From positions 1-11,452 of IMG/VR virus record IMGVR_UViG_2778261693_000002: a stretch of 11,452 nt of DNA; one strand, 5' to 3'. Positions 1 through 11,434 of the stretch are shown one piece after another. Made by a program: the position numbers and the translations under genes. How positions within the stretch are numbered: position 1 is the stretch's first letter; each line of letters starts with the position of its first letter. Source of the DNA: a virus (Duplodnaviria; Heunggongvirae; Uroviricota; Caudoviricetes). The notes below the pieces were generated by a model. It searched no databases. It had not been told where the DNA came from and saw only the letters and a list, made by a program, of their open reading frames with translations.

Positions 1-157
1 GCGTACCGGGTTGAGAAGCGGTGTAAGTGAACTGCAGTTGCCATGTTTTACGGCAGTGAGAGCAGAGATAGCGCTGATGTCCGGCGGTGCTTTTGCCGTT
101 ACGCACCACCCCGTCAGTAGCTGAACAGGAGGGACAGCTGATAGAAACAGAAGCCAC
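1..157 (-). CDS. insA: IS1 InsA (N-terminal transposase/repressor protein), 5' portion only; 3' end lies outside the window
   Basis: Minus-strand frame from GTG at 157-155 translates [52 protein letters not shown]..., matching remembered InsA; runs off the window edge. Confidence 0.75.
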
Positions 158-212
158 TGGAGCACCTCAAAAACACCATCATACACTAAATCAGTAAGTT
201 GGCAGCATTACC
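1..212 (-). mobile_element. IS1 insertion sequence, partial (left ~212 bp including terminal inverted repeat at 190-212; element continues beyond window start)
   Basis: Reverse complement of 1-212 reads GGTAATGCTGCCAACTTACTGATTTAGTGTATGATGGTGTTTTTGAGGTGCTCCAGTGGCTTCTGTTTC..., i.e. the IS1 left terminal IR followed by the insA start. Recognised from memory of IS1, not searched. Sequence changes abruptly to AT-rich DNA at 213. Confidence 0.85.
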
Positions 213-689
213 AATTTTCTCTTCTATATTACCAGTTTCAGCTGCAATTGCAGATATACCTGAATTATATAATTCTAATCTGCGTAAAATTTGCTTTGGT
301 AATAAATTTCTATCTTTCAGCCTCTCAAATGAAAAAAGGTCATTAATCCTATGAGAGATATATAACATTGAAATAACATAAGATGGTATAGCGGTTTGTT
401 GAACTGATGCGTTACCATTGTTTATATGATTAATATTTTGCTGAGCATGATCCAGAGTGTAAATGAGCGCATCAATTACTGCAATGTCATCTGAAGATGG
501 TACAAATTCCTGCATCTGATTAATTCTATCAGATAACATTTTTGGTAGTTCTATCAGATCCTCTTTATGTAAAAAAGGAAATGTGTACGGCCCAAGGTTT
601 ATAAAATCTTCCACAGGGAATACAAGACCATTAAGTGTTGTATGTAAATTATCTAGTTTCTCTTTTAATTCAGTTAGTTTTTCGTTCAT
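186..689 (-). CDS. AT-rich hypothetical protein (orphan cargo gene); frame runs into IS1 and stops 8 codons inside the IS1 terminal repeat, so the native C-terminus is probably lost
   Basis: Long ORF in low-GC DNA. ATG at 689 is preceded by AAGGA (revcomp of 698-702); the longer track start at 836 has no RBS and sits directly on the upstream terminator T-run. Last codons GNAANLLI* are encoded by IS1 sequence 186-212. No recognisable family. Confidence 0.45.
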   Translation of the reverse strand: MNEKLTELKEKLDNLHTTLNGLVFPVEDFINLGPYTFPFLHKEDLIELPKMLSDRINQMQEFVPSSDDIAVIDALIYTLDHAQQNINHINNGNASVQQTAIPSYVISMLYISHRINDLFSFERLKDRNLLPKQILRRLELYNSGISAIAAETGNIEEKIGNAANLLI

Positions 690-845
690 TAAAAAATCCT
701 TTATGACGCTATCGAACTTCCAGAGTAATCCGATAAAGATATCATAAGACAATATTTTGGTATAAACACTTATTGCGCGCGCTCGTATCCCCGCCACGCC
801 TGCCCGCTTTATGTAGTGGTTTTCATGCACCTGCATGATCTACGC

Positions 846-869
846 AAAAGCCCGCCAGTTCTGGCAGGC
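846..869 (-). terminator. Rho-independent terminator for the LexA-controlled operon (minus strand)
   Basis: Plus-strand AAAA (846-849) followed by GCCCGCCAG tt CTGGCAGGC (9-bp stem, one mismatch); on the minus strand this is a GC hairpin followed by TTTT, ~135 nt downstream of the DinI-like stop. Confidence 0.5.
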
Positions 870-1003
870 CTTAGCAAAAACGATCCTCAAACGATCATGC
901 GATCTCATGCGGCATAGACATGCACCACAGAGCTAACGCCTCGCACAGCTCGTTGTTCAACCTTGCTGACGCCAGAAGCAAGTTCAGACGCCAGCAACGT
1001 TTC

Positions 1004-1237
1004 TTAATGCAGCCAGCTGTCGTCTTCCCACACCTTCTGCATAATTTTCATCACTTGTTTTCTTTCTTCGTCCAGTTGCAGTCCGGTCAGTTCCACACCG
1101 TTAGAGCTACCTTTGCGGATACGAATTACCGTTTTGGGATACAGAGGGCGCAGATTGCGGTAAAGCTCGGATTCAAGGGCGTCCAGTGTAGACTGGCTAA
1201 CCTTCTGCTCTTTATCGATCATTATTTCAATGCGCAT
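1004..1237 (-). CDS. DinI-like DNA-damage-inducible protein
   Basis: From internal ATG at 1237 (RBS GAGGTG 5 nt upstream) the product MRIEIMIDKEQKVSQSTLDALESELYRNLRPLYPKTVIRIRKG...KIMQKVWEDDSWLH aligns by eye with E. coli DinI (MRIEVTIAK...IDALAGELSRRI...ETWESADDWF). The 101-aa track ORF from 1309 is an upstream extension. Confidence 0.8.
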   Translation of the reverse strand: MRIEIMIDKEQKVSQSTLDALESELYRNLRPLYPKTVIRIRKGSSNGVELTGLQLDEERKQVMKIMQKVWEDDSWLH

Positions 1238-1247
1238 AAAAGTCACC

Positions 1248-1436
1248 TCAGCTGATGACATCCATTGAGCGGTTGTATTCGTGGGTTCTGATTTTTGCCA
1301 TGAGTTCATCTGTCAGTTCAGAAACCCACTGCAGGGCCAGCCCCTTCTCTTCATCACTACACTCACTAGCCGCTACAAGCTTAAGAAAAAAATCAATGCG
1401 CTGGAGCTTCAAAGACTCCAAAAAATAGTCCTGCAT
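1248..1436 (-). CDS. Small hypothetical protein, first gene of the LexA-box operon (positional analogue of the phage 186 Tum antirepressor; function not recognisable)
   Basis: 62-aa ORF with strong RBS (AGGAGG, revcomp of 1441-1446) 4 nt before ATG at 1436; directly downstream of the LexA box; its 3' end carries the RBS of the DinI-like gene. Confidence 0.45.
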   Translation of the reverse strand: MQDYFLESLKLQRIDFFLKLVAASECSDEEKGLALQWVSELTDELMAKIRTHEYNRSMDVIS

Positions 1437-1476
1437 CTTTCCTCCTATGACACCAAAGCAATACTGTATATATAAC

Positions 1477-1496
1477 CACTGTTTATATTTACAGTA
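1477..1496 (-). promoter_or_regulatory. LexA (SOS) operator, CTGT-N8-ACAG, with an overlapping second half-site at 1462-1474
   Basis: cACTGTTTATATTTACAGTA at 1477-1496 matches the LexA consensus TACTGTATATATATACAGTA at 17/20; TACTGTATATATA at 1462-1474 is a perfect left half with a degenerate right half. Located ~45-60 bp upstream of ATG 1436 in an AT-rich promoter-like region. Confidence 0.7.
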
Positions 1497-1588
1497 TATA
1501 ATAATCTTACTGATGTAAAACGTTTTTTTATGCTCATCAGCCTGATATGCCTGGTATTATTAAGGGCACGAATTGTTAACCCGCGTAA

Positions 1589-4003
1589 TTAATACAGGTT
1601 TCGCCACTTATCATCTTCCTGCAAACGCTGGTTCCGATAGAAGATACGCAGGCCTGCTCCTGACGGAATACTGCCGCCGCGAAGCAGTAAATCGACCTCT
1701 TTCTCGCTGCCATCAAATCCCCTGGACTTCAGTTCATACACGAGCTGCTGTCGCTGATGATCTGTAATTCGCTGTTTGTAGTCTTTACGCCGTTTCGGTT
1801 TCACAAGGCGTAACCTTGCTGCCAGTTCCCGGCGCTCTTTTTTGCTCATACTGTGCAGGTAATCGTGCAACTCCTTGTCATCCATGCGGGTGATATCCGT
1901 TCTGGTATCTCCATCAGCTGATTTGTCTTTCCCTTGTTGGTACAAATTTTCAGCAAGGGGACAGTTATTGCCACGAGTCCAAGGGGCGCAAGCGCCCTGG
2001 TCGGCTGCCGCCTCCTGAACGTCAACGGCCTTACGAACCATTTTCCACTTCACTGCATGAGTGCAGATCTTGCCCTCTGCAATGGGTGACCAGATGCCAT
2101 AAATACGAATACCGTGATCGCCATAGGCGGTTGGCTCTTCGTTGATTTCATAAGCGGTTCTGATGAGGTGATATTTGCGGGGAACCAGTACGCCGCCCTG
2201 CTTCATGATGTAGGTGGCAAAACAACCAGCATCAGCAGCAGCCAGGATGGCATCAAGGCGCGGGTTATCCAGTACCGACGCACCTGCTTTTTTGTCACCC
2301 TGTTGCCTTGCCGCCTGACCAGCCAGCAATCGCAGTTCACGGTAAGCCTGACGCCCCGGAATGCCAAAGAAGCGGAATTGCTGAACACGATGCAGAGACG
2401 CCCAGGCATTAACGTATTCAGCGTTATCACGCAGGGATTTCCCCGTTTCCTTACTGATCTCGCCAGCCAGACCACGCCCGTCAATATTCTTACTGATATA
2501 TTTCGCAATGTAGCTTGTCGGCGTTCCTTTGCGCGGGTTTATCAGCTCAGACTTAAAGCGTGGCCCCGTGTTATTGCCCAGCTCCTCGCGGTCTTCACGG
2601 ATGGCAAACTTACGCAACAATGCAGTAATGGCGCGGCGGTCTTTTTTGCGCATGAAACACAACAGGTGCCAGTGAACTGTGCCATCATGATGCGGCTCAG
2701 CCACCCGCACGCCATACCAGCGCAACCCGGCTTTGTGCATAGCCTTACGAAATGCAGCAAACATGCCGACCAGATAATCGCTGCTTTGTCTTACTGTCGC
2801 GTTGGTCCAGGTCGGGTTTGGCCTGCCGTTATTTAGCGTGGAATGGAAACGTGACGGACAGGTGATGGTGTAGAAAACGGCGCAGTCACCGCGCATTTCC
2901 GCGATAAGCTCCAGGCCTTTAACACAGGCCATCATCTCGTTGCGGCGATGCGCCGGGTTGCTGCTGCTGGCGTTTACCACATCCTCCATGTTCAGCGTGT
3001 CGCCGTCTTCGTTCACCAGTTCATGAGAACGGAAAAACTCCAGCGACTTACGGCGCTGCTCACGTTTATGCATCACGGCTTCATAGCTGACATAGGGAGA
3101 TGCTTTTTTGCTGACCAGGCAGACAGCACGCAACTGCTCTTCCCGCCATTCGCAACGCATCTTCCATAATTTCCGATACCACCAGTCGGCGCACAGCATA
3201 CGCGCCAGCGAACCCGGAATGCGTTCATAAGGCACAGGTTTGCGGCGGTTTCTTTTCCGGCGGAGTTGCTCAAACGCAGGCGGTATGACATCCAGTCGCA
3301 GGGTTTCTGCAGCCACCTTTTCCCATGTCTTGCGGATTTCTTCTGGCTTAACATCATCGGAGGCGTACAAATCACCACAAGCGGCATCAAGACACATGCT
3401 CATATGCGCAGCGACAAGGGTAGACAGGCGTTTCACCTGATCCTGACTCATTTCAGGCAGGATCAGCAGACCGTCCAGCCCTTCATGGCTTGCCATAAAC
3501 CGAAAAGATGCAGATAGCTGGCTGTCGCGTACATGCTCCAGTCGTTCCAGACATGGCTTAATCGTCTCACGCAAATAGCGGGAATAAGCCTTTGGCCTGC
3601 CCAGGCTGCTGAAGTATTCAATACGTTGCATCAGCGGCTTGCTGATATGGGAAGGCTGGGCGTTGACGTCAGCCAGAATGACCATGTCTGGATTAAAACG
3701 CTGCTGCTCATGCGCCATCTTTGCCCGGCTAATGAGCTTATCCTGCTCCATTTCGCGTTGGACAGGATCACGGGATTCATTAAAGAAATAACGCTCCCAG
3801 ACCTGATCACTTAGTGCCTCGCGGCGCAGTTGTTCCTGCTCGTTATCGGTAGCGTACAAAGTGATCAGGTTTGAAAGCGCAGAAACCGGCGCAACTTCCA
3901 CCGGGTCCAGATAAGGGTTAATGGCCTTTTTCGGGCTGTTCCATGAGAATGCTGCGGCGACCTCGTTAAAGCCGCTGCAGTTGTTCATATCAGCATGGCT
4001 CAT
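1589..4003 (-). CDS. Replication initiation endonuclease, phage P2 gpA family (HUH rolling-circle initiator)
   Basis: 804-aa ORF; HUH motif VHWHLLCF and paired-tyrosine active-site motif YIAKYISK; ATG 4003 overlaps the upstream Dam stop (ATGA); RBS GGAG 8 nt upstream. Confidence 0.9.
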
Positions 4004-4857: not shown

Positions 4858-5081
4858 ACAGCACCTCCGTTGTAATGTTTACCTTTCAGCTCTGCGATTT
4901 CCTGACAGGTAATGCAAAGCTGCACTCCCGGAATGGCGCGGCGGCGCGCTGGCGGAATTGGCGCTTCACACTCAATGCAAAGCACGCGAGACACGCCAGG
5001 TGTTTTGGCACGGGCAGCACGGATGTGGCGCTGGCGTTCTTCTTCAACGCGCTGCTGTACGAGATCCATTGCATCAGCCAT
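4854..5081 (-). CDS. TraR/DksA-family C4 zinc-finger protein
   Basis: 75 aa; CIECEAPIPPARRRAIPGVQLCITCQ...KGKHY closely parallels F-plasmid TraR (LCEACGNPIPEARRKIFPGVTLCVECQ...RKHY) as remembered; RBS AGGAGA; ATG overlaps the preceding stop (TAATG). Confidence 0.8.
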   Translation of the reverse strand: MADAMDLVQQRVEEERQRHIRAARAKTPGVSRVLCIECEAPIPPARRRAIPGVQLCITCQEIAELKGKHYNGGAV

Positions 5082-5314
5082 TAGTGGATCTCCTGCGCTT
5101 CGTTCTGGATTGCTTCAGCGGTCACACGCAGCAGTTCTGCTGCTTCAACGTGGTTTAGCTGGCGGGATGAGATATGACACGCCAGGCTATCAAGGCGAGC
5201 TGCCATTGCTTCAGCCCTTGCCCGGCGTTCTTCCAGACGAGCCTCTGTCAGTAAAAGATTAAGACCTGCATCATCCGGTCCGGTTTTGGTCGTGAGGGTT
5301 TCAATATTACGCAT
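5081..5314 (-). CDS. Hypothetical phage early protein
   Basis: ORF in the early operon; the track start at 5320 is TTG, and the ATG at 5314 has RBS AGGAGA 7 nt upstream; stop overlaps the next start codon. Confidence 0.45.
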   Translation of the reverse strand: MRNIETLTTKTGPDDAGLNLLLTEARLEERRARAEAMAARLDSLACHISSRQLNHVEAAELLRVTAEAIQNEAQEIH

Positions 5315-6800: not shown

Positions 6801-7433
6801 ATGTTAAACATCAGAATGGGTTCCGATACGGGAGGTAAAGCAGCTATTGAGAGGCTGCTTGCGGCTTATGGATTCACAACTAAGCAGGCATTAAGTGAGC
6901 ACCTGAATGTCTCAAAAAGCACTATGGCAAACAGAGTGTTACGTGACAGCTTTCCTGCTGACTGGATAATTCAGTGCGCACTAGAAACCGGTGTTTCGTT
7001 GCTTTGGTTAGCTACAGGACAGGGAAGCATGAAAGCAGGATCTGAGACTGAAAAAAGATCTCACAATGAGAACAAACAAGCAATTAAACCGTTATCTAAA
7101 CTCATAACTCCATCTATTCCTAAAGGAACCTTGGAGAATGGACAACTCAGTATTGATGAAGAGATTTTCCTAGACCACAGCATATTACCTGCAAATTATG
7201 AAGAATCGATGTTCTTAGAAACCCCTACTGATTGTTATCTCATCGATAAATCAGTTAAACAAGTCAGCAATGGATTCTGGCTTATCAATATTGATGGAAT
7301 GATTATTATTGCAAAAATTATGCGGATTCCCGGCAATAAGATTGTAGTAAATCAAGATGAAGCGTCTTTCGAGTGCTCTGCTGATGATGTGGAAGTTATT
7401 GGGCGTGCAGTCAAAGTAATAAAGAGTATCTAA
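6801..7433 (+). CDS. CI-type immunity repressor (N-terminal HTH, C-terminal domain)
   Basis: 210-aa ORF immediately upstream of and co-transcribed with int (stop 7431-7433, int ATG 7436); HTH-like TTKQALSEHLNVSKSTMANRV; RBS GGAG; divergent from apl across the switch region. Confidence 0.7.
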   Translation: MLNIRMGSDTGGKAAIERLLAAYGFTTKQALSEHLNVSKSTMANRVLRDSFPADWIIQCALETGVSLLWLATGQGSMKAGSETEKRSHNENKQAIKPLSKLITPSIPKGTLENGQLSIDEEIFLDHSILPANYEESMFLETPTDCYLIDKSVKQVSNGFWLINIDGMIIIAKIMRIPGNKIVVNQDEASFECSADDVEVIGRAVKVIKSI

Positions 7434-8829: not shown

Positions 8830-10566
8830 CTACTCAAGAAGATATTCTAACTCATCTTTTATCGGGATAACTTGCTCATAAAGTCGGTGATATGACTTCC
8901 CAATTGCGCCTCTGAATTGTATTAACTTTGGTGGCTTGTTACCTATATTAATAATATGGTCTTGGGCTATACCTGGGTAGGGATCAATAAATACAATTTC
9001 AGATATACCTAACTGATAAGCTTTTTTCGCACACAGCTCACAGGGACTGGCAGTTGTATATAACCTTCCCCCCTGAACGCCAATACCACCATATTTTGCA
9101 AGTTGTAAAAAAGCGTTTTCCTCAGCATGTAATGCACGTGTATGAACTTGATTACCTTTTTTATCTTTATCAAGATCATTATGTATATCTTTAAAACAAT
9201 AAGATAAGTTCCTGCCTCTATAAATATCACCAGTTTTATCTATCGCCCTAAAATTTAAGAGTTTCTCATTAGCCTTAATTCTGAAAGAACTATTATTTCT
9301 CTCATAATGACTGTACACTTTTTCATCAAAGTCGTTCATTAGGCCATCTAGCGATCTCATAGAGCAAGGAATCTGACCGTTGGCAACATCATTCCAACCT
9401 ACTGATTTTATTGAATTGTCACCATCAGTTACTACAGCTCCCACCTGTCTAGATATACAACCAGAGTTTAATTTTACCGTATACGCAACTTGCATAACCC
9501 TTTCCATTGCAGTAGGTGTTATCAGACCAGGATGCTTCATCAGTGCGATGTACCACGCTAATTGTGCTTTTAAAATATTATCATTATCAAATTCATTTTT
9601 TGGGTTAAAAATGTGTATATCTGATAGTTCAATACATTTAGTTACATTTGGATTAGTGAGATGTTTGTAAGAGTTATCACCTTTACCTGACTCTACAGAA
9701 TCTATTTCCTCTATCTGCTTTTCAGAAAACTTATGTAGTTTCCGCAAATAGTTTGTTCGATGTTCATCTGGGGCATTTATTGACATTAAATGAAATGCAG
9801 AATATCTATCCTTAAAAAATTTTGCTTCATATGGATTTCTAATAGCATCTATGACAATTAATGCGTTATCTCTTTTGCTTTTTCTTATTAATTTAATAAC
9901 CCTATTAATAGTTTCCGGCAAATGAAAAACAGATTTAGGTATAAACTCTTTATCTTCAAAATCGACTTCAATACGCCCACGGCGTCTAATTGACTTACCT
10001 GCTAACTGATAGACTGAAACATATAAATTTGAGTTTATCGCATTTAGTTCAGCTTTGAATTCCTTAGTAAATTTTCTAACTAACCTCAAAATTGATATAA
10101 ATTTATTAATCGTTTTTTCATTAAGCTTCAATTCACTATTATGATCAAGCAAATTCTCAATTACATTTTTAAATCTTGTTAAAATTAGATTATCTGAGAA
10201 TACACCAAAAGTTAATACATTATCTAAATGCTCTTTACTGATAGATTTATTAGATGACAGAATGAATTCAGAAGCTTCTTCAACTGTTAACATCAAAAGA
10301 TACGCTGAGATTAGGTCACTCACCTTAATTGAGTAAAAATTTTCCCAGTGATTTTCTGCGAATTTTTTAACTATATTATAACGATGGACATCCAATCCCT
10401 TGTAAAAACCCTGTAATTTACTTACATCAGGGAAGACTGTTTTTTCGTTTTCAAGAATATTAGCTGTTGTTGTGCAACCAGAACCAGTTCGACCTGTCAA
10501 ACCGACTAAAATAAACTGCCCATTTTCAAGGAAAAGCTCACTAACGAATTTTTTTTCTTTCATCAC
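8830..10566 (-). CDS. P-loop-kinase-like + dCMP/cytidine-deaminase fusion protein (AvcD/DCD-like candidate anti-phage deoxynucleotide deaminase)
   Basis: 578-aa ORF in low-GC DNA. N-terminal Walker-A-like VGLTGRTGSGCTT (10468-10503, Lys replaced by Cys). C-terminal deaminase signatures RQVGAVV, zinc ligands HAE (9121-9129) and PCELC (9031-9045). Start is GTG 10566 or ATG 10563. Family assignment from memory, no search. Confidence 0.75.
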   Translation of the reverse strand: MMKEKKFVSELFLENGQFILVGLTGRTGSGCTTTANILENEKTVFPDVSKLQGFYKGLDVHRYNIVKKFAENHWENFYSIKVSDLISAYLLMLTVEEASEFILSSNKSISKEHLDNVLTFGVFSDNLILTRFKNVIENLLDHNSELKLNEKTINKFISILRLVRKFTKEFKAELNAINSNLYVSVYQLAGKSIRRRGRIEVDFEDKEFIPKSVFHLPETINRVIKLIRKSKRDNALIVIDAIRNPYEAKFFKDRYSAFHLMSINAPDEHRTNYLRKLHKFSEKQIEEIDSVESGKGDNSYKHLTNPNVTKCIELSDIHIFNPKNEFDNDNILKAQLAWYIALMKHPGLITPTAMERVMQVAYTVKLNSGCISRQVGAVVTDGDNSIKSVGWNDVANGQIPCSMRSLDGLMNDFDEKVYSHYERNNSSFRIKANEKLLNFRAIDKTGDIYRGRNLSYCFKDIHNDLDKDKKGNQVHTRALHAEENAFLQLAKYGGIGVQGGRLYTTASPCELCAKKAYQLGISEIVFIDPYPGIAQDHIINIGNKPPKLIQFRGAIGKSYHRLYEQVIPIKDELEYLLE

Positions 10567-10987: not shown

Positions 10988-11434
10988 TTGGCAAGAACGA
11001 CACGCCCCCTGACCAACACAGAAGTACTGCGCGCTAAAGCGTTAGAAAAGGATCTAACGTTGCATGATGGCGATGGTCTTTTTCTACTCGTTAAAACGAA
11101 CGGTAAGAAGTTATGGCGTTTCCGTTATCAACGTCCGGCAACAAAGCAGCGGACAATGATGGGGCTAGGTACCTTCCCAGCTCTTTCACTTGCTGACGCC
11201 CGACGGTTAAGAGCGGATTACCTTTCCTTGTTAGCCAACGGAATTGACCCGCAAATTCAAGCTGAAATTGCAGAGGAACAGCAGCAAATCGCACAGGACA
11301 GTATTTTTACAACGGTCGCCGCTAAGGAAGGTGCGAATAAGCAGGTCATTTCTTCCCAAGCTGACTCGTTGATTAAAATTTCGCGGATCTGGGCCGATTT
11401 TTTTCCCGCAAACACATCGAATCAGCCTATTTAG
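10988..11434 (+). pseudogene. P4-type integrase, N-terminal fragment (~110 aa of arm-binding domain, then divergent tail and premature stop)
   Basis: TTG start with strong RBS AAGGAG; MARTTRPLTNTEVLRAKALEKDLTLHDGDGLFLLVKTNGKKLWRFRYQRPATKQRTMMGLGTFPALSLADARRLRADYLSLLANGIDP fits the N-terminus of P4/CP4-57-family integrases (~400 aa full length) as remembered; ORF ends at 148 aa with no catalytic domain. Confidence 0.55.

What the first reader, a model, noticed from the sequence alone, without database searches (positions are those of the whole stretch)
1004..1500. LexA-box controlled two-gene operon (small ORF + DinI-like) downstream of the replication gene
Seen: a near-consensus LexA box (1477-1496) overlapping a second half-site (1462-1474) lies ~45 bp upstream of a strongly RBS-led 62-aa ORF, followed by a DinI-like gene and a terminator. 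Established (from memory): 186-type phages are induced by a LexA-repressed antirepressor (Tum) rather than by repressor autocleavage. Inference: the 62-aa protein is the candidate antirepressor. It is much shorter than the ~146 aa I recall for 186 Tum, so it may be a different or minimal antirepressor.
Basis: partly seen in the sequence, partly recalled or inferred. Interest (0 to 1): 0.5.

Follow-up and report, generated by a model that had tools for sequence, protein, structure and literature searches.

The report
Split Tum antirepressor SOS operon

Summary
On the minus strand, after the gpA replication gene, there is a promoter (TTTACA-17 nt-TACTGT). It is covered by two overlapping LexA boxes (1496-1477 and 1481-1462). 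Then come a 62-codon ORF (1436-1248), a DinI-family gene (1237-1004), two hairpins and the phage cos site (800-782).

The 62-aa protein is the stand-alone form of the N-terminal antirepressor part of coliphage 186 Tum (profile match to Tum residues 5-44, 94.5% probability). It is 61/62 identical to ECHS_RS04495 of the E. coli HS prophage DuoHS. A published in-frame deletion of exactly that ORF, or a lexA(Ind-) allele, abolishes mitomycin C induction. It is also 61/62 identical to Fels-2 STM2728. The split tumA/tumB layout is already documented for PSP3 and Fels-2. The module occurs in 1125 of 5426 complete E. coli genomes.

The operator is a colicin-type double SOS box, at a fixed 15-bp offset in 24 of 34 related loci. 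And nearly identical Tum proteins sit beside CI repressors only 38-60% identical, with no Tum-CI covariation, which suggests a promiscuous antirepressor.

Verdict: interpretation supported, already known, low interest.

The parts
1589..4003 (-). gpA-type replication endonuclease gene. This is context: the operon lies directly downstream of it.
   Evidence: 804-aa ORF. Homologous stretches are annotated as replication endonuclease / gpA in phage and E. coli records.
1491..1529 (-). p95-like SOS promoter: A-tract 1529-1523, -35 TTTACA 1519-1514, 17-nt spacer, -10 TACTGT 1496-1491 (the -10 is the left arm of LexA box 1).
   Evidence: Read from the sequence. The layout matches the annotated p95 of phage 186 (-35 TTCACA, -10 TACTGT inside the LexA box). 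The pattern A-tract + TT[TC]A[CA][AT]-N16-18-T[AG]CTG[TC] (TTTACA-N17-TACTGT in most) is kept in 32 of 35 related loci. The generic promoter scan missed it because the -10 matches only 3 of 6 consensus positions.
1477..1496 (-). LexA box 1 (TACTGTAAATATAAACAGTG), overlapping the -10.
   Evidence: Unique consensus match in the window. Scores 22.0 bits; 0 of 300 simulated windows reach this. Conserved in all related loci that have upstream DNA.
1462..1481 (-). LexA box 2 (CAGTGGTTATATATACAGTA), overlapping box 1 by 5 bp. Together they form a colicin-type double SOS operator.
   Evidence: Scores 16.9 bits; 2 of 300 simulations reach this. The fixed 15-bp offset is kept in 24 of 34 related loci. 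The geometry is the same as at ColE1 5063-5093, and 27 of 31 bases are identical.
1248..1436 (-). tum (tumA-type): 62-aa antirepressor ORF with RBS AGGAGG at 1446-1441.
   Evidence: ORF listed. It is 61/62 identical to ECHS_RS04495 and to Fels-2 STM2728. 32 orthologues have exactly 62 codons, with pooled pN/pS 0.14. hhalign to 186 Tum residues 5-44 gives 94.5% probability. The AF2 model is a helical hairpin with pLDDT 88.
1004..1237 (-). DinI-family gene (tumB-type), 77 aa. Its RBS GAGGTGA (1249-1243) overlaps the tum stop codon.
   Evidence: Pfam DinI E 6.6e-23, above the curated cut-off. phrog_189 match to profile positions 71-148 of 151. 59/77 identical to PSP3 TumB and 30/75 to the DinI-like C-terminal part of 186 Tum.
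963..997 (-). Conserved stem-loop just after the operon (11-bp stem, no U-run). It may belong to the conserved cos-proximal region rather than being a terminator.
   Evidence: RNA fold. The same element follows tum directly in loci that lack the DinI-like gene (L018, L024, L028, L039).
843..870 (-). Terminator-like GC-rich hairpin followed by UUUUGCGU.
   Evidence: RNA fold, in both the MFE and the centroid structure. The stem aligns with a conserved element near the right ends of 186 and PSP3.
782..800 (-). cos cohesive-end sequence GGCGTGGCGGGGATACGAG. It marks the right end of the phage chromosome, so tum-dinI is the last transcription unit before it.
   Evidence: The right ends of the 186 and PSP3 records align up to position 801. 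The annotated 19-nt cos of 186 aligns with 800-782.
6801..7433 (+). 186-type CI immunity repressor, the presumed target of Tum.
   Evidence: Pfam Phage_CI_repr E 5.7e-30 and Phage_CI_C E 1.7e-30. Matches the solved 186 CI structure 2fjr with E 2.8e-26.

Best explanation
This is the SOS induction module of a Fels-2-type (186-like, Peduoviridae) prophage.

In the lysogen, two LexA dimers are expected to occupy the overlapping boxes. These cover the -10 and the start region of a p95-like promoter, and keep it shut. DNA damage activates RecA, LexA cleaves itself, and the promoter fires. The transcript encodes two proteins.

1. A 62-residue helical-hairpin protein, homologous to the N-terminal part of 186 Tum. 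It binds the prophage's 186-type CI repressor stoichiometrically and prevents CI from binding its operators. This switches on the lytic promoter.

2. A DinI-family protein, which probably modulates RecA-filament (SOS) activity and is not needed for induction itself.

Transcription stops at hairpins just before the cos site.

What is shown here: the sequence anatomy, its conservation, the homology to Tum and DinI, and the presence of a 186-type CI.
What is shown in the literature for a 61/62-identical orthologue: the small ORF and cleavable LexA are both required for mitomycin C induction.
What is inferred: binding to this particular CI, occupancy of both boxes by LexA, and the role of the DinI-like protein.
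For: - Anatomy and statistical support for the LexA boxes.
- Conservation of the promoter and operator across 34 loci from many Enterobacterales genera, although the flanking sequence has diverged.
- Purifying selection on the ORF: pN/pS 0.14, with 32 orthologues of exactly 62 codons.
- Homology to 186 Tum residues 5-44 (hhalign 94.5%) and to a Yersinia phage protein annotated as 'tum protein' (96.6%). The 186 Tum N-terminus itself hits those Yersinia proteins by tblastn (E 3e-6 to 7e-3).
- Same position as tum in 186 and tumA/tumB in PSP3: after gene A, before cos, behind a LexA box.
- Experimental evidence from a near-identical prophage. The delta-tum deletion in E. coli HS DuoHS removes exactly this ORF: primers NHR24/NHR28 and locus tag ECHS_RS04495, with a near-identical promoter and operator. 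[quoted passage not shown]
- Lemire et al. 2011 state that Fels-2 and PSP3 have tum split in two and that in PSP3 the upstream gene carries the antirepressor activity.
- 186 Tum is described as an anti-CI factor whose capacity to sequester CI can be exceeded (PMC7708051).
- The CI here is of the 186 type.
Against: - Pairwise BLASTP finds no similarity between the 62-aa protein and 186 Tum or PSP3 TumA. The profile match to PSP3 TumA is weak (E 0.004, probability 8.6%).
- The CI of the experimentally tested prophage DuoHS is only 43% identical to the CI in this window. Action on this CI is therefore extrapolated.
- No physical Tum-CI interaction has been shown for any Fels-2-type protein in the material I could read.
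- The -10 hexamer is weak (3 of 6), and the promoter is assigned by analogy with 186 p95.
- The position weight matrix was built from LexA sites recalled from memory.
Confidence: 0.9

Rival explanations
1. The DinI-like protein, or the two proteins acting only together, is the real inducer. The 62-aa protein would be an accessory factor or merely needed for expression of the downstream gene.
For: In 186 the two parts are one polypeptide. The RBS of the DinI-like gene overlaps the tum stop codon, so some translational coupling is possible. I saw no complementation test of the HS delta-tum mutant.
Against: The HS deletion keeps the ATG-TGA fusion and the intact RBS and start of the DinI-like gene, yet induction is lost. 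13 of 35 related loci have tum behind LexA boxes but no DinI-like gene. Yersinia and ESSI-2-type phages also carry tum alone. In PSP3 the upstream gene is reported to carry the antirepressor activity.
Confidence: 0.04
2. The 62-aa protein triggers induction through a target other than CI, for example CII, Apl, or the host LexA/RecA.
For: There is no covariation between Tum and CI sequences (Mantel r 0.058). Identical Tum proteins sit next to CIs that are 38-50% identical. The Phollow paper says only that tum 'inhibits pro-lysogenic regulators'.
Against: The protein is homologous to the part of 186 Tum whose product is annotated and published as inhibiting CI DNA binding. The SOS reporter still responds in the delta-tum strain, so Tum is not needed for the SOS response itself. 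All 29 CIs analysed are of the 186 type and share a strongly conserved stretch (window CI residues 37-75) that could be a common docking surface.
Confidence: 0.05
3. The LexA-like sequences are a chance feature of an AT-rich intergenic region, and the two genes are transcribed by read-through from gene A.
For: No intrinsic terminator is evident between the gpA stop (1589) and the promoter. The region is AT-rich (GC 0.35).
Against: The box scores exceed nearly all simulations. The boxes and their 15-bp offset are conserved across genera while the surrounding bases vary. The geometry matches the ColE1 operator. lexA(Ind-) blocks induction in the near-identical HS prophage.
Confidence: 0.01

Closest known systems
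tum of the E. coli HS prophage DuoHS (ECHS_RS04495) and STM2728 / STM2726.1 of Salmonella phage Fels-2
   Same: Tum is 61/62 identical and the DinI-like protein 76/77 identical. The promoter and double LexA operator are near identical, and the genes occupy the same position after gpA. [quoted passage not shown] A Fels-2 prophage makes a lexA null lethal in Salmonella (the title of Bunny et al. 2002, cited).
   Different: The CI repressors differ strongly: window versus HS 43% identity, window versus Fels-2 60%. The genes beyond cos also differ. Databases still call the ORF 'hypothetical protein'.
Tum of coliphage 186 (146 aa, p95 SOS operon)
   Same: It is LexA-repressed, with the -10 TACTGT inside the box, and lies after gene A near the right end. 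Its N-terminal 5-44 is homologous to the 62-aa protein and its C-terminal 77 residues are DinI-like. It acts on a 186-type CI.
   Different: In 186 the two modules are fused in one reading frame with internal starts, whereas here they are two genes, 13 nt out of frame. 186 has a single LexA box and a third gene, orf97, in the operon. Pairwise identity of the N-terminal parts is only 23%.
tumA / tumB of Salmonella phage PSP3
   Same: The same split layout: a small upstream gene annotated 'UV induction of prophage', then a dinI homologue (59/77 identical to the one here), a LexA box, and the same right-end position.
   Different: PSP3 TumA is barely alignable with the 62-aa protein (hhalign E 0.004). 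PSP3 has a single LexA box.
Colicin operon double SOS operators (for example ColE1 cea)
   Same: Two LexA boxes overlapping by 5 bp in the form CTGT-N9-CAGTG-N10-CAG; 27 of 31 bases are identical to ColE1 5063-5093. Both control a product that is lethal to the cell. In colicin operons the two boxes bind two LexA dimers and prevent untimely expression (PMC2994835).
   Different: The downstream genes are unrelated. Whether LexA binds cooperatively, and whether induction is delayed, has not been tested for the phage operator.
LexA-controlled antirepressors of the Gifsy prophages (GfoA, GftA) and N15 AntC
   Same: These are small SOS-induced proteins that bind non-cleavable repressors. The Gifsy operons also contain a dinI homologue, and the Gifsy antirepressors act in trans on repressors of other prophages (PMC3121763).
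   Different: No sequence relationship was detected. The gene order is reversed in Gifsy (dinI first), and the repressor family is different.

Membership tests
186-type Tum antirepressor (split tumA form) | Sequence homology to the N-terminal, non-DinI part of 186 Tum | tested here: met
   A profile of 28 family members aligns with 186 Tum residues 5-44 (hhalign probability 94.5%, E 7.6e-8). It also aligns with a Yersinia phage 'tum protein' (96.6%). Pairwise BLASTP finds nothing.
186-type Tum antirepressor (split tumA form) | Expressed from a LexA-repressed promoter directly upstream | tested here: met
   Tested at the sequence level only. There are two high-scoring LexA boxes over the -10 and start region, conserved in related loci. 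LexA binding itself was not measured.
186-type Tum antirepressor (split tumA form) | Located after replication gene A at the right end of a P2/186-like genome that encodes a 186-type CI without a LexA-like autocleavage domain | tested here: met
   gpA lies upstream and cos lies about 200 nt downstream. The CI has Phage_CI_repr and Phage_CI_C as its only significant Pfam domains and matches 186 CI structure 2fjr.
186-type Tum antirepressor (split tumA form) | Required for SOS (mitomycin C or UV) induction of the prophage | not testable with these tools
   Shown in the literature for the 61/62-identical DuoHS orthologue. Not shown for this prophage.
186-type Tum antirepressor (split tumA form) | Binds CI and prevents its binding to DNA | not testable with these tools
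   Known for 186 Tum (the record note; PMC7708051).
DinI family | Match to Pfam PF06183 above the gathering score over the whole domain | tested here: met
   81.3 bits against a cut-off of 24.2, covering profile positions 1-63 of 63. phrog_189 E 3.9e-29.
DinI family | Binds RecA filaments and modulates the SOS response | not testable with these tools
   There is only the annotation of the 186 truncated Tum products ('modulates SOS induction').
Colicin-type double SOS operator | Two 20-bp LexA boxes overlapping by 5 bp (15-bp offset) | tested here: met
   The pattern CTGT-N9-CAGTG-N10-CAG is found once in the window and once in ColE1. The offset is kept in 24 of 34 related loci.
Colicin-type double SOS operator | Simultaneous or cooperative binding of two LexA dimers giving very tight repression | not testable with these tools
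   Stated for colicin operons in PMC2994835. Not measured for this operator.

The most novel reading that the evidence does not exclude
The Fels-2-type Tum may be a promiscuous, 'universal' antirepressor. One highly conserved 62-aa protein (64-100% identity across genera) would inactivate many heteroimmune 186-type CI repressors. At least 14 CI clusters, at 70% identity or more, occur among the 29 prophages analysed. Tum would dock on the one strongly conserved CI stretch, window CI residues 37-75 (SKSTMANR..RD.FP.DW...C..ETG.SL.WL.TG.G).

If so, co-resident P2-like prophages of different immunity would be cross-induced. Immunity and inducibility would also evolve independently.

Support: there is no Tum-CI covariation (Mantel r 0.058). 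Tums that are 60/62 identical function in DuoHS and, by the lexA-null lethality, in Fels-2, although the CIs of those two phages are only 46% identical.
Probability: 0.45. Interest if true: 0.45.

Novelty: already known. Interest (0 to 1): 0.15.

Why it matters
Practically, it identifies which gene makes this very common class of E. coli, Salmonella and Klebsiella prophages inducible by DNA damage. The module is present in about a fifth of complete E. coli genomes. NCBI and phage databases still label the gene 'hypothetical protein', so naming it tum would improve annotation and help predict which P2-like prophages are SOS-inducible.

Conceptually it adds nothing new to the 186 paradigm. The two side observations are modest leads. 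One is the colicin-type double operator on a lethal phage function. The other is that one conserved Tum is paired with many divergent CI repressors. Together they could explain tight repression and possible cross-induction between heteroimmune prophages.

Tried and rejected
- Pairwise BLASTP of the 62-aa protein against 186 Tum and PSP3 TumA gave no alignment. Only profiles show the relationship.
- Pfam, PADLOC and PDB sequence searches found nothing for the 62-aa protein.
- The Foldseek search of its AF2 model against viral structures gave no significant match. The best E was 0.17, and a helical hairpin is a generic shape.
- The generic promoter scan found no promoter, because the -10 is weak.
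- Rfam and tRNA scans of the window found nothing.
The single protein was used instead.
- Bunny et al. 2002 is not held in the library. Its content is cited only through Lemire et al. 2011.
- A search for 'TumA/TumB/PSP3' papers returned only irrelevant hits.
- I considered a programmed frameshift or read-through that would fuse the two ORFs, and rejected it. The DinI-like ATG is 13 nt after the T of the stop codon (out of frame) and has its own RBS. No fused Fels-2-type protein appears among the 66 representative clusters.
- I considered the AT-rich ORF at 186-836 as a third operon gene, by analogy with orf97 of 186, and rejected it. It lies beyond the terminator-like hairpin and beyond cos.

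Full report
**1. What is in the sequence**

Read on the minus strand, the window holds the early and immunity region of a P2/186-like prophage.

- The 804-aa gpA-type replication endonuclease gene ends at 1589.
- Downstream of it lie an A-tract (1529-1523), a -35 TTTACA (1519-1514), a 17-nt spacer and TACTGT (1496-1491).
- TACTGT is the left arm of a LexA box, TACTGTAAATATAAACAGTG (1496-1477).
- A second box, CAGTGGTTATATATACAGTA (1481-1462), overlaps the first by 5 bp.
- Then come AGGAGG (1446-1441) and a 62-codon ORF (1436-1248).
- GAGGTGA overlaps that ORF's stop codon and precedes a 77-codon ORF (1237-1004).

The second ORF is a full-length DinI-family protein (Pfam PF06183, 81.3 bits against a cut-off of 24.2). 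Its true start is ATG 1237, not the ATG at 1309 listed mechanically.

**2. Is it more than chance?**

- CTGT-N8-ACAG occurs once in the window (expected 0.12).
- A match within 3 mismatches of the 20-nt LexA consensus also occurs once (expected 0.00).
- I built a position weight matrix from 20 E. coli operators. I recalled these from memory, so the matrix is approximate. Box 1 scores 22.0 bits and box 2 scores 16.9 bits, while the real training sites range from 12.7 to 25.1.
- The next best site in the window scores 10.2 bits.
- Of 300 simulated windows, none reached the score of box 1 and two reached that of box 2.

**3. What the small protein is**

Pfam, PADLOC and PDB searches find nothing for the 62-aa protein. 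PHROGs places it in phrog_698, of unknown function.

It is 98% identical to Fels-2 STM2728, and similar ORFs occur in SopEPhi, RE2010 and many Klebsiella and Escherichia P2-like phages.

The GenBank records give the key context:

- In 186, the LexA-controlled p95 promoter drives tum. Tum is a 146-aa protein whose last 77 residues are DinI-like.
- In PSP3 the same place holds two genes. tumA is annotated 'similar to 5' end 186 tum; UV induction of prophage', and tumB is annotated 'similar to dinI and 3' end of 186 tum'.
- Lemire et al. 2011 state that Fels-2 and PSP3 have tum split in two by a stop codon, and that in PSP3 the upstream gene carries the antirepressor activity (PMC3121763).

Pairwise BLASTP shows no similarity between the window protein and 186 Tum or PSP3 TumA. 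I therefore tested the relationship with profiles:

- An exhaustive HMMER search found 66 representative clusters. Almost all are stand-alone proteins of 55-75 aa.
- A 28-member alignment of them has the consensus MxDLFxESxxLQRIxLxxRLVAxxxCSxxDKELALxWxxELTxEL.
- This profile aligns with 186 Tum residues 5-44 at 94.5% probability (E 7.6e-8).
- It aligns with a Yersinia phage 'tum protein' at 96.6% probability.
- The 186 Tum N-terminus itself finds those Yersinia proteins by tblastn.
- The match to PSP3 TumA is weak (E 0.004).

The 62-aa protein is therefore the stand-alone version of the Tum N-terminal module, not a new kind of antirepressor.

It is a real gene. 32 orthologues from many genera have exactly 62 codons, and pooled pN/pS is 0.14. 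AlphaFold2 predicts a two-helix hairpin (residues 2-23 and 28-61, mean pLDDT 88). That model has no informative structural neighbours.

**4. Experimental evidence from a near-identical prophage**

The Phollow study (Nat Microbiol 2025, PMC12055606) deleted 'tum' in the P2-like prophage DuoHS of E. coli HS. [quoted passage not shown]

The supplementary file gives the locus tag ECHS_RS04495 and the primers. These fuse ...ATAGGAGGAAAGATG directly to TGAGGTGACTTTTATGCGCATTG. That removes exactly the small ORF and leaves the DinI-like gene with its RBS.

ECHS_RS04495 is a 62-aa 'hypothetical protein' followed by a DinI-like gene. It differs from the window protein at one residue, T51S. The promoter and operator regions of the window, DuoHS and Fels-2 are nearly identical.

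**5. The target**

The ORF at 6801-7433 is a 186-type CI. It has Phage_CI_repr and Phage_CI_C domains and matches the solved 186 CI structure 2fjr with E 2.8e-26.

186 Tum is described as an anti-CI factor induced by SOS derepression of p95. Its capacity to sequester CI can be exceeded by CI overproduction (PMC7708051).

That the window's Tum acts on the window's CI is an inference from homology and genomic context.

**6. Conservation of the control region**

A scan of one genome per species returned 33 loci with Tum orthologues of 71-100% identity. The genera include Escherichia, Citrobacter, Enterobacter, Klebsiella, Kluyvera, Serratia, Pantoea, Tatumella, Erwinia and others.

- Every locus that has upstream DNA and an intact start carries a strong LexA box.
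- 24 of 34 have the second box at a fixed 15-bp offset by position weight matrix score, or 26 by a relaxed pattern.
- 32 of 35 keep the A-tract, -35, 16-18-nt (mostly 17-nt) spacer and TACTGT layout, although the spacer and flanks have diverged.
- 186, PSP3, ESSI-2-type and Yersinia phages have a single box.

The double arrangement has the same geometry as the classic ColE1 colicin operator. ColE1 5063-5093 reads CTGTATATAAAACCAGTGGTTATATGTACAG, and 27 of 31 bases are identical to the window.

[quoted passage not shown] By analogy, the phage operator probably gives very tight repression of a function that kills the host. This is an inference.

**7. The end of the operon**

Two hairpins follow the DinI-like stop codon.

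- One lies at 997-963 and has no U-run.
- The other lies at 870-843 and is followed by UUUUGCGU.

The right ends of the 186 and PSP3 genome records align with the window up to position 801. The annotated 19-nt cos of 186 aligns with 800-782, GGCGTGGCGGGGATACGAG.

So tum-dinI is the last transcription unit before cos. Unlike in 186, there is no orf97-like third gene. The first hairpin also follows tum directly in loci that lack the DinI-like gene, so it may belong to the conserved cos-proximal region.

The DinI-like gene is dispensable for the module. It is absent from 13 of 35 related loci and from the Yersinia and ESSI-2-type phages.

**8. An unexpected side result**

Tum is nearly invariant while CI is not.

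- Window, DuoHS and Fels-2 Tums are 97-98% identical, but their CIs are only 43-60% identical.
- Among 29 prophages there are 14 CI clusters at 70% identity or more.
- Identical Tums sit beside CIs that are 38-50% identical.
- One Pantoea prophage pairs a Fels-2-type Tum with a 186-like CI.
- The Mantel correlation between Tum and CI identities is 0.058, and 450 of 2000 permutations reach it.
- The most conserved part of these CIs is residues 37-75 of the window protein, at the end of the DNA-binding domain.

This suggests that Tum recognises a conserved CI surface and could act across immunity types. Trans-acting behaviour of this kind is known for the unrelated Gifsy antirepressors. I could not test it.

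**9. Verdict**

However, the system is already described for 186, PSP3, Fels-2 and DuoHS. It is also extremely common, present in 1125 of 5426 complete E. coli genomes. Its main residual value is annotation, since the ORF is still labelled 'hypothetical protein' everywhere, plus the two modest leads above.

Noticed in passing
window 1248-1436 compared with 6801-7433; loci L009-L041: Tum is 64-100% identical across 29 prophages, while the linked 186-type CI repressors fall into 14 clusters (median identity 44%). There is no covariation (Mantel r 0.058). Identical Tums occur with CIs that are 38-50% identical, and L030 (Pantoea stewartii) pairs a Fels-2-type Tum with a 186-like CI. This suggests a promiscuous antirepressor, or at least independent recombination of the immunity and induction modules.
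   Followed up: partly
window 1462-1496; ColE1 L042 5063-5093: The tum operator has the same two-overlapping-box geometry as colicin E1, with 27 of 31 bases identical. 186, PSP3, ESSI-2-type and Yersinia phages have only one box.
   Followed up: yes
window 8830-10566 (-): A 578-aa protein with an N-terminal P-loop and a C-terminal dCMP/cytidine deaminase domain matches the PADLOC dCTPase model for the dCTP-deaminase anti-phage defence (E 1.4e-145). It lies just outside the prophage integrase gene and before the N-terminal part of a second integrase (10988-11434, Arm-DNA-bind_3). This may be a defence island or a tandem integration site.
   Followed up: partly
window 1-212: The left edge of the window is the end of an IS1 element (99-100% identical to IS1 copies in more than 5000 plasmids). 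The AT-rich ORF at 186-836 (-) runs into the IS1 terminal repeat: its last residues GNAANLLI* are encoded by IS1. IS1 has therefore probably interrupted a low-GC cargo gene just beyond cos.
   Followed up: partly
window 782-800 (-): The prophage's cos cohesive-end sequence GGCGTGGCGGGGATACGAG lies about 200 nt downstream of the DinI-like gene. The low-GC gene at about 186-689 is therefore at the left end of the phage chromosome, in the variable slot between cos and the portal gene. Fels-2 and DuoHS carry other unknown genes in that slot.
   Followed up: partly
window 963-997 (-); L018, L024, L028, L039: A conserved stem-loop (TTGCTGGCGTC...GGCGTCAGCAA) followed by GGTTGAACAACGAG...GAGGCGTTAG directly follows either the DinI-like gene or, where that gene is absent, tum. 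Its function is unknown; it could be a cos-proximal packaging signal or an RNA 3' end.
   Followed up: no
L039 (Siccibacter turicensis), L023, L040: Some related prophages carry a disrupted tum (frameshifted in L039) or a broken DinI-like gene (L023, L040). These prophages may have lost SOS inducibility.
   Followed up: no
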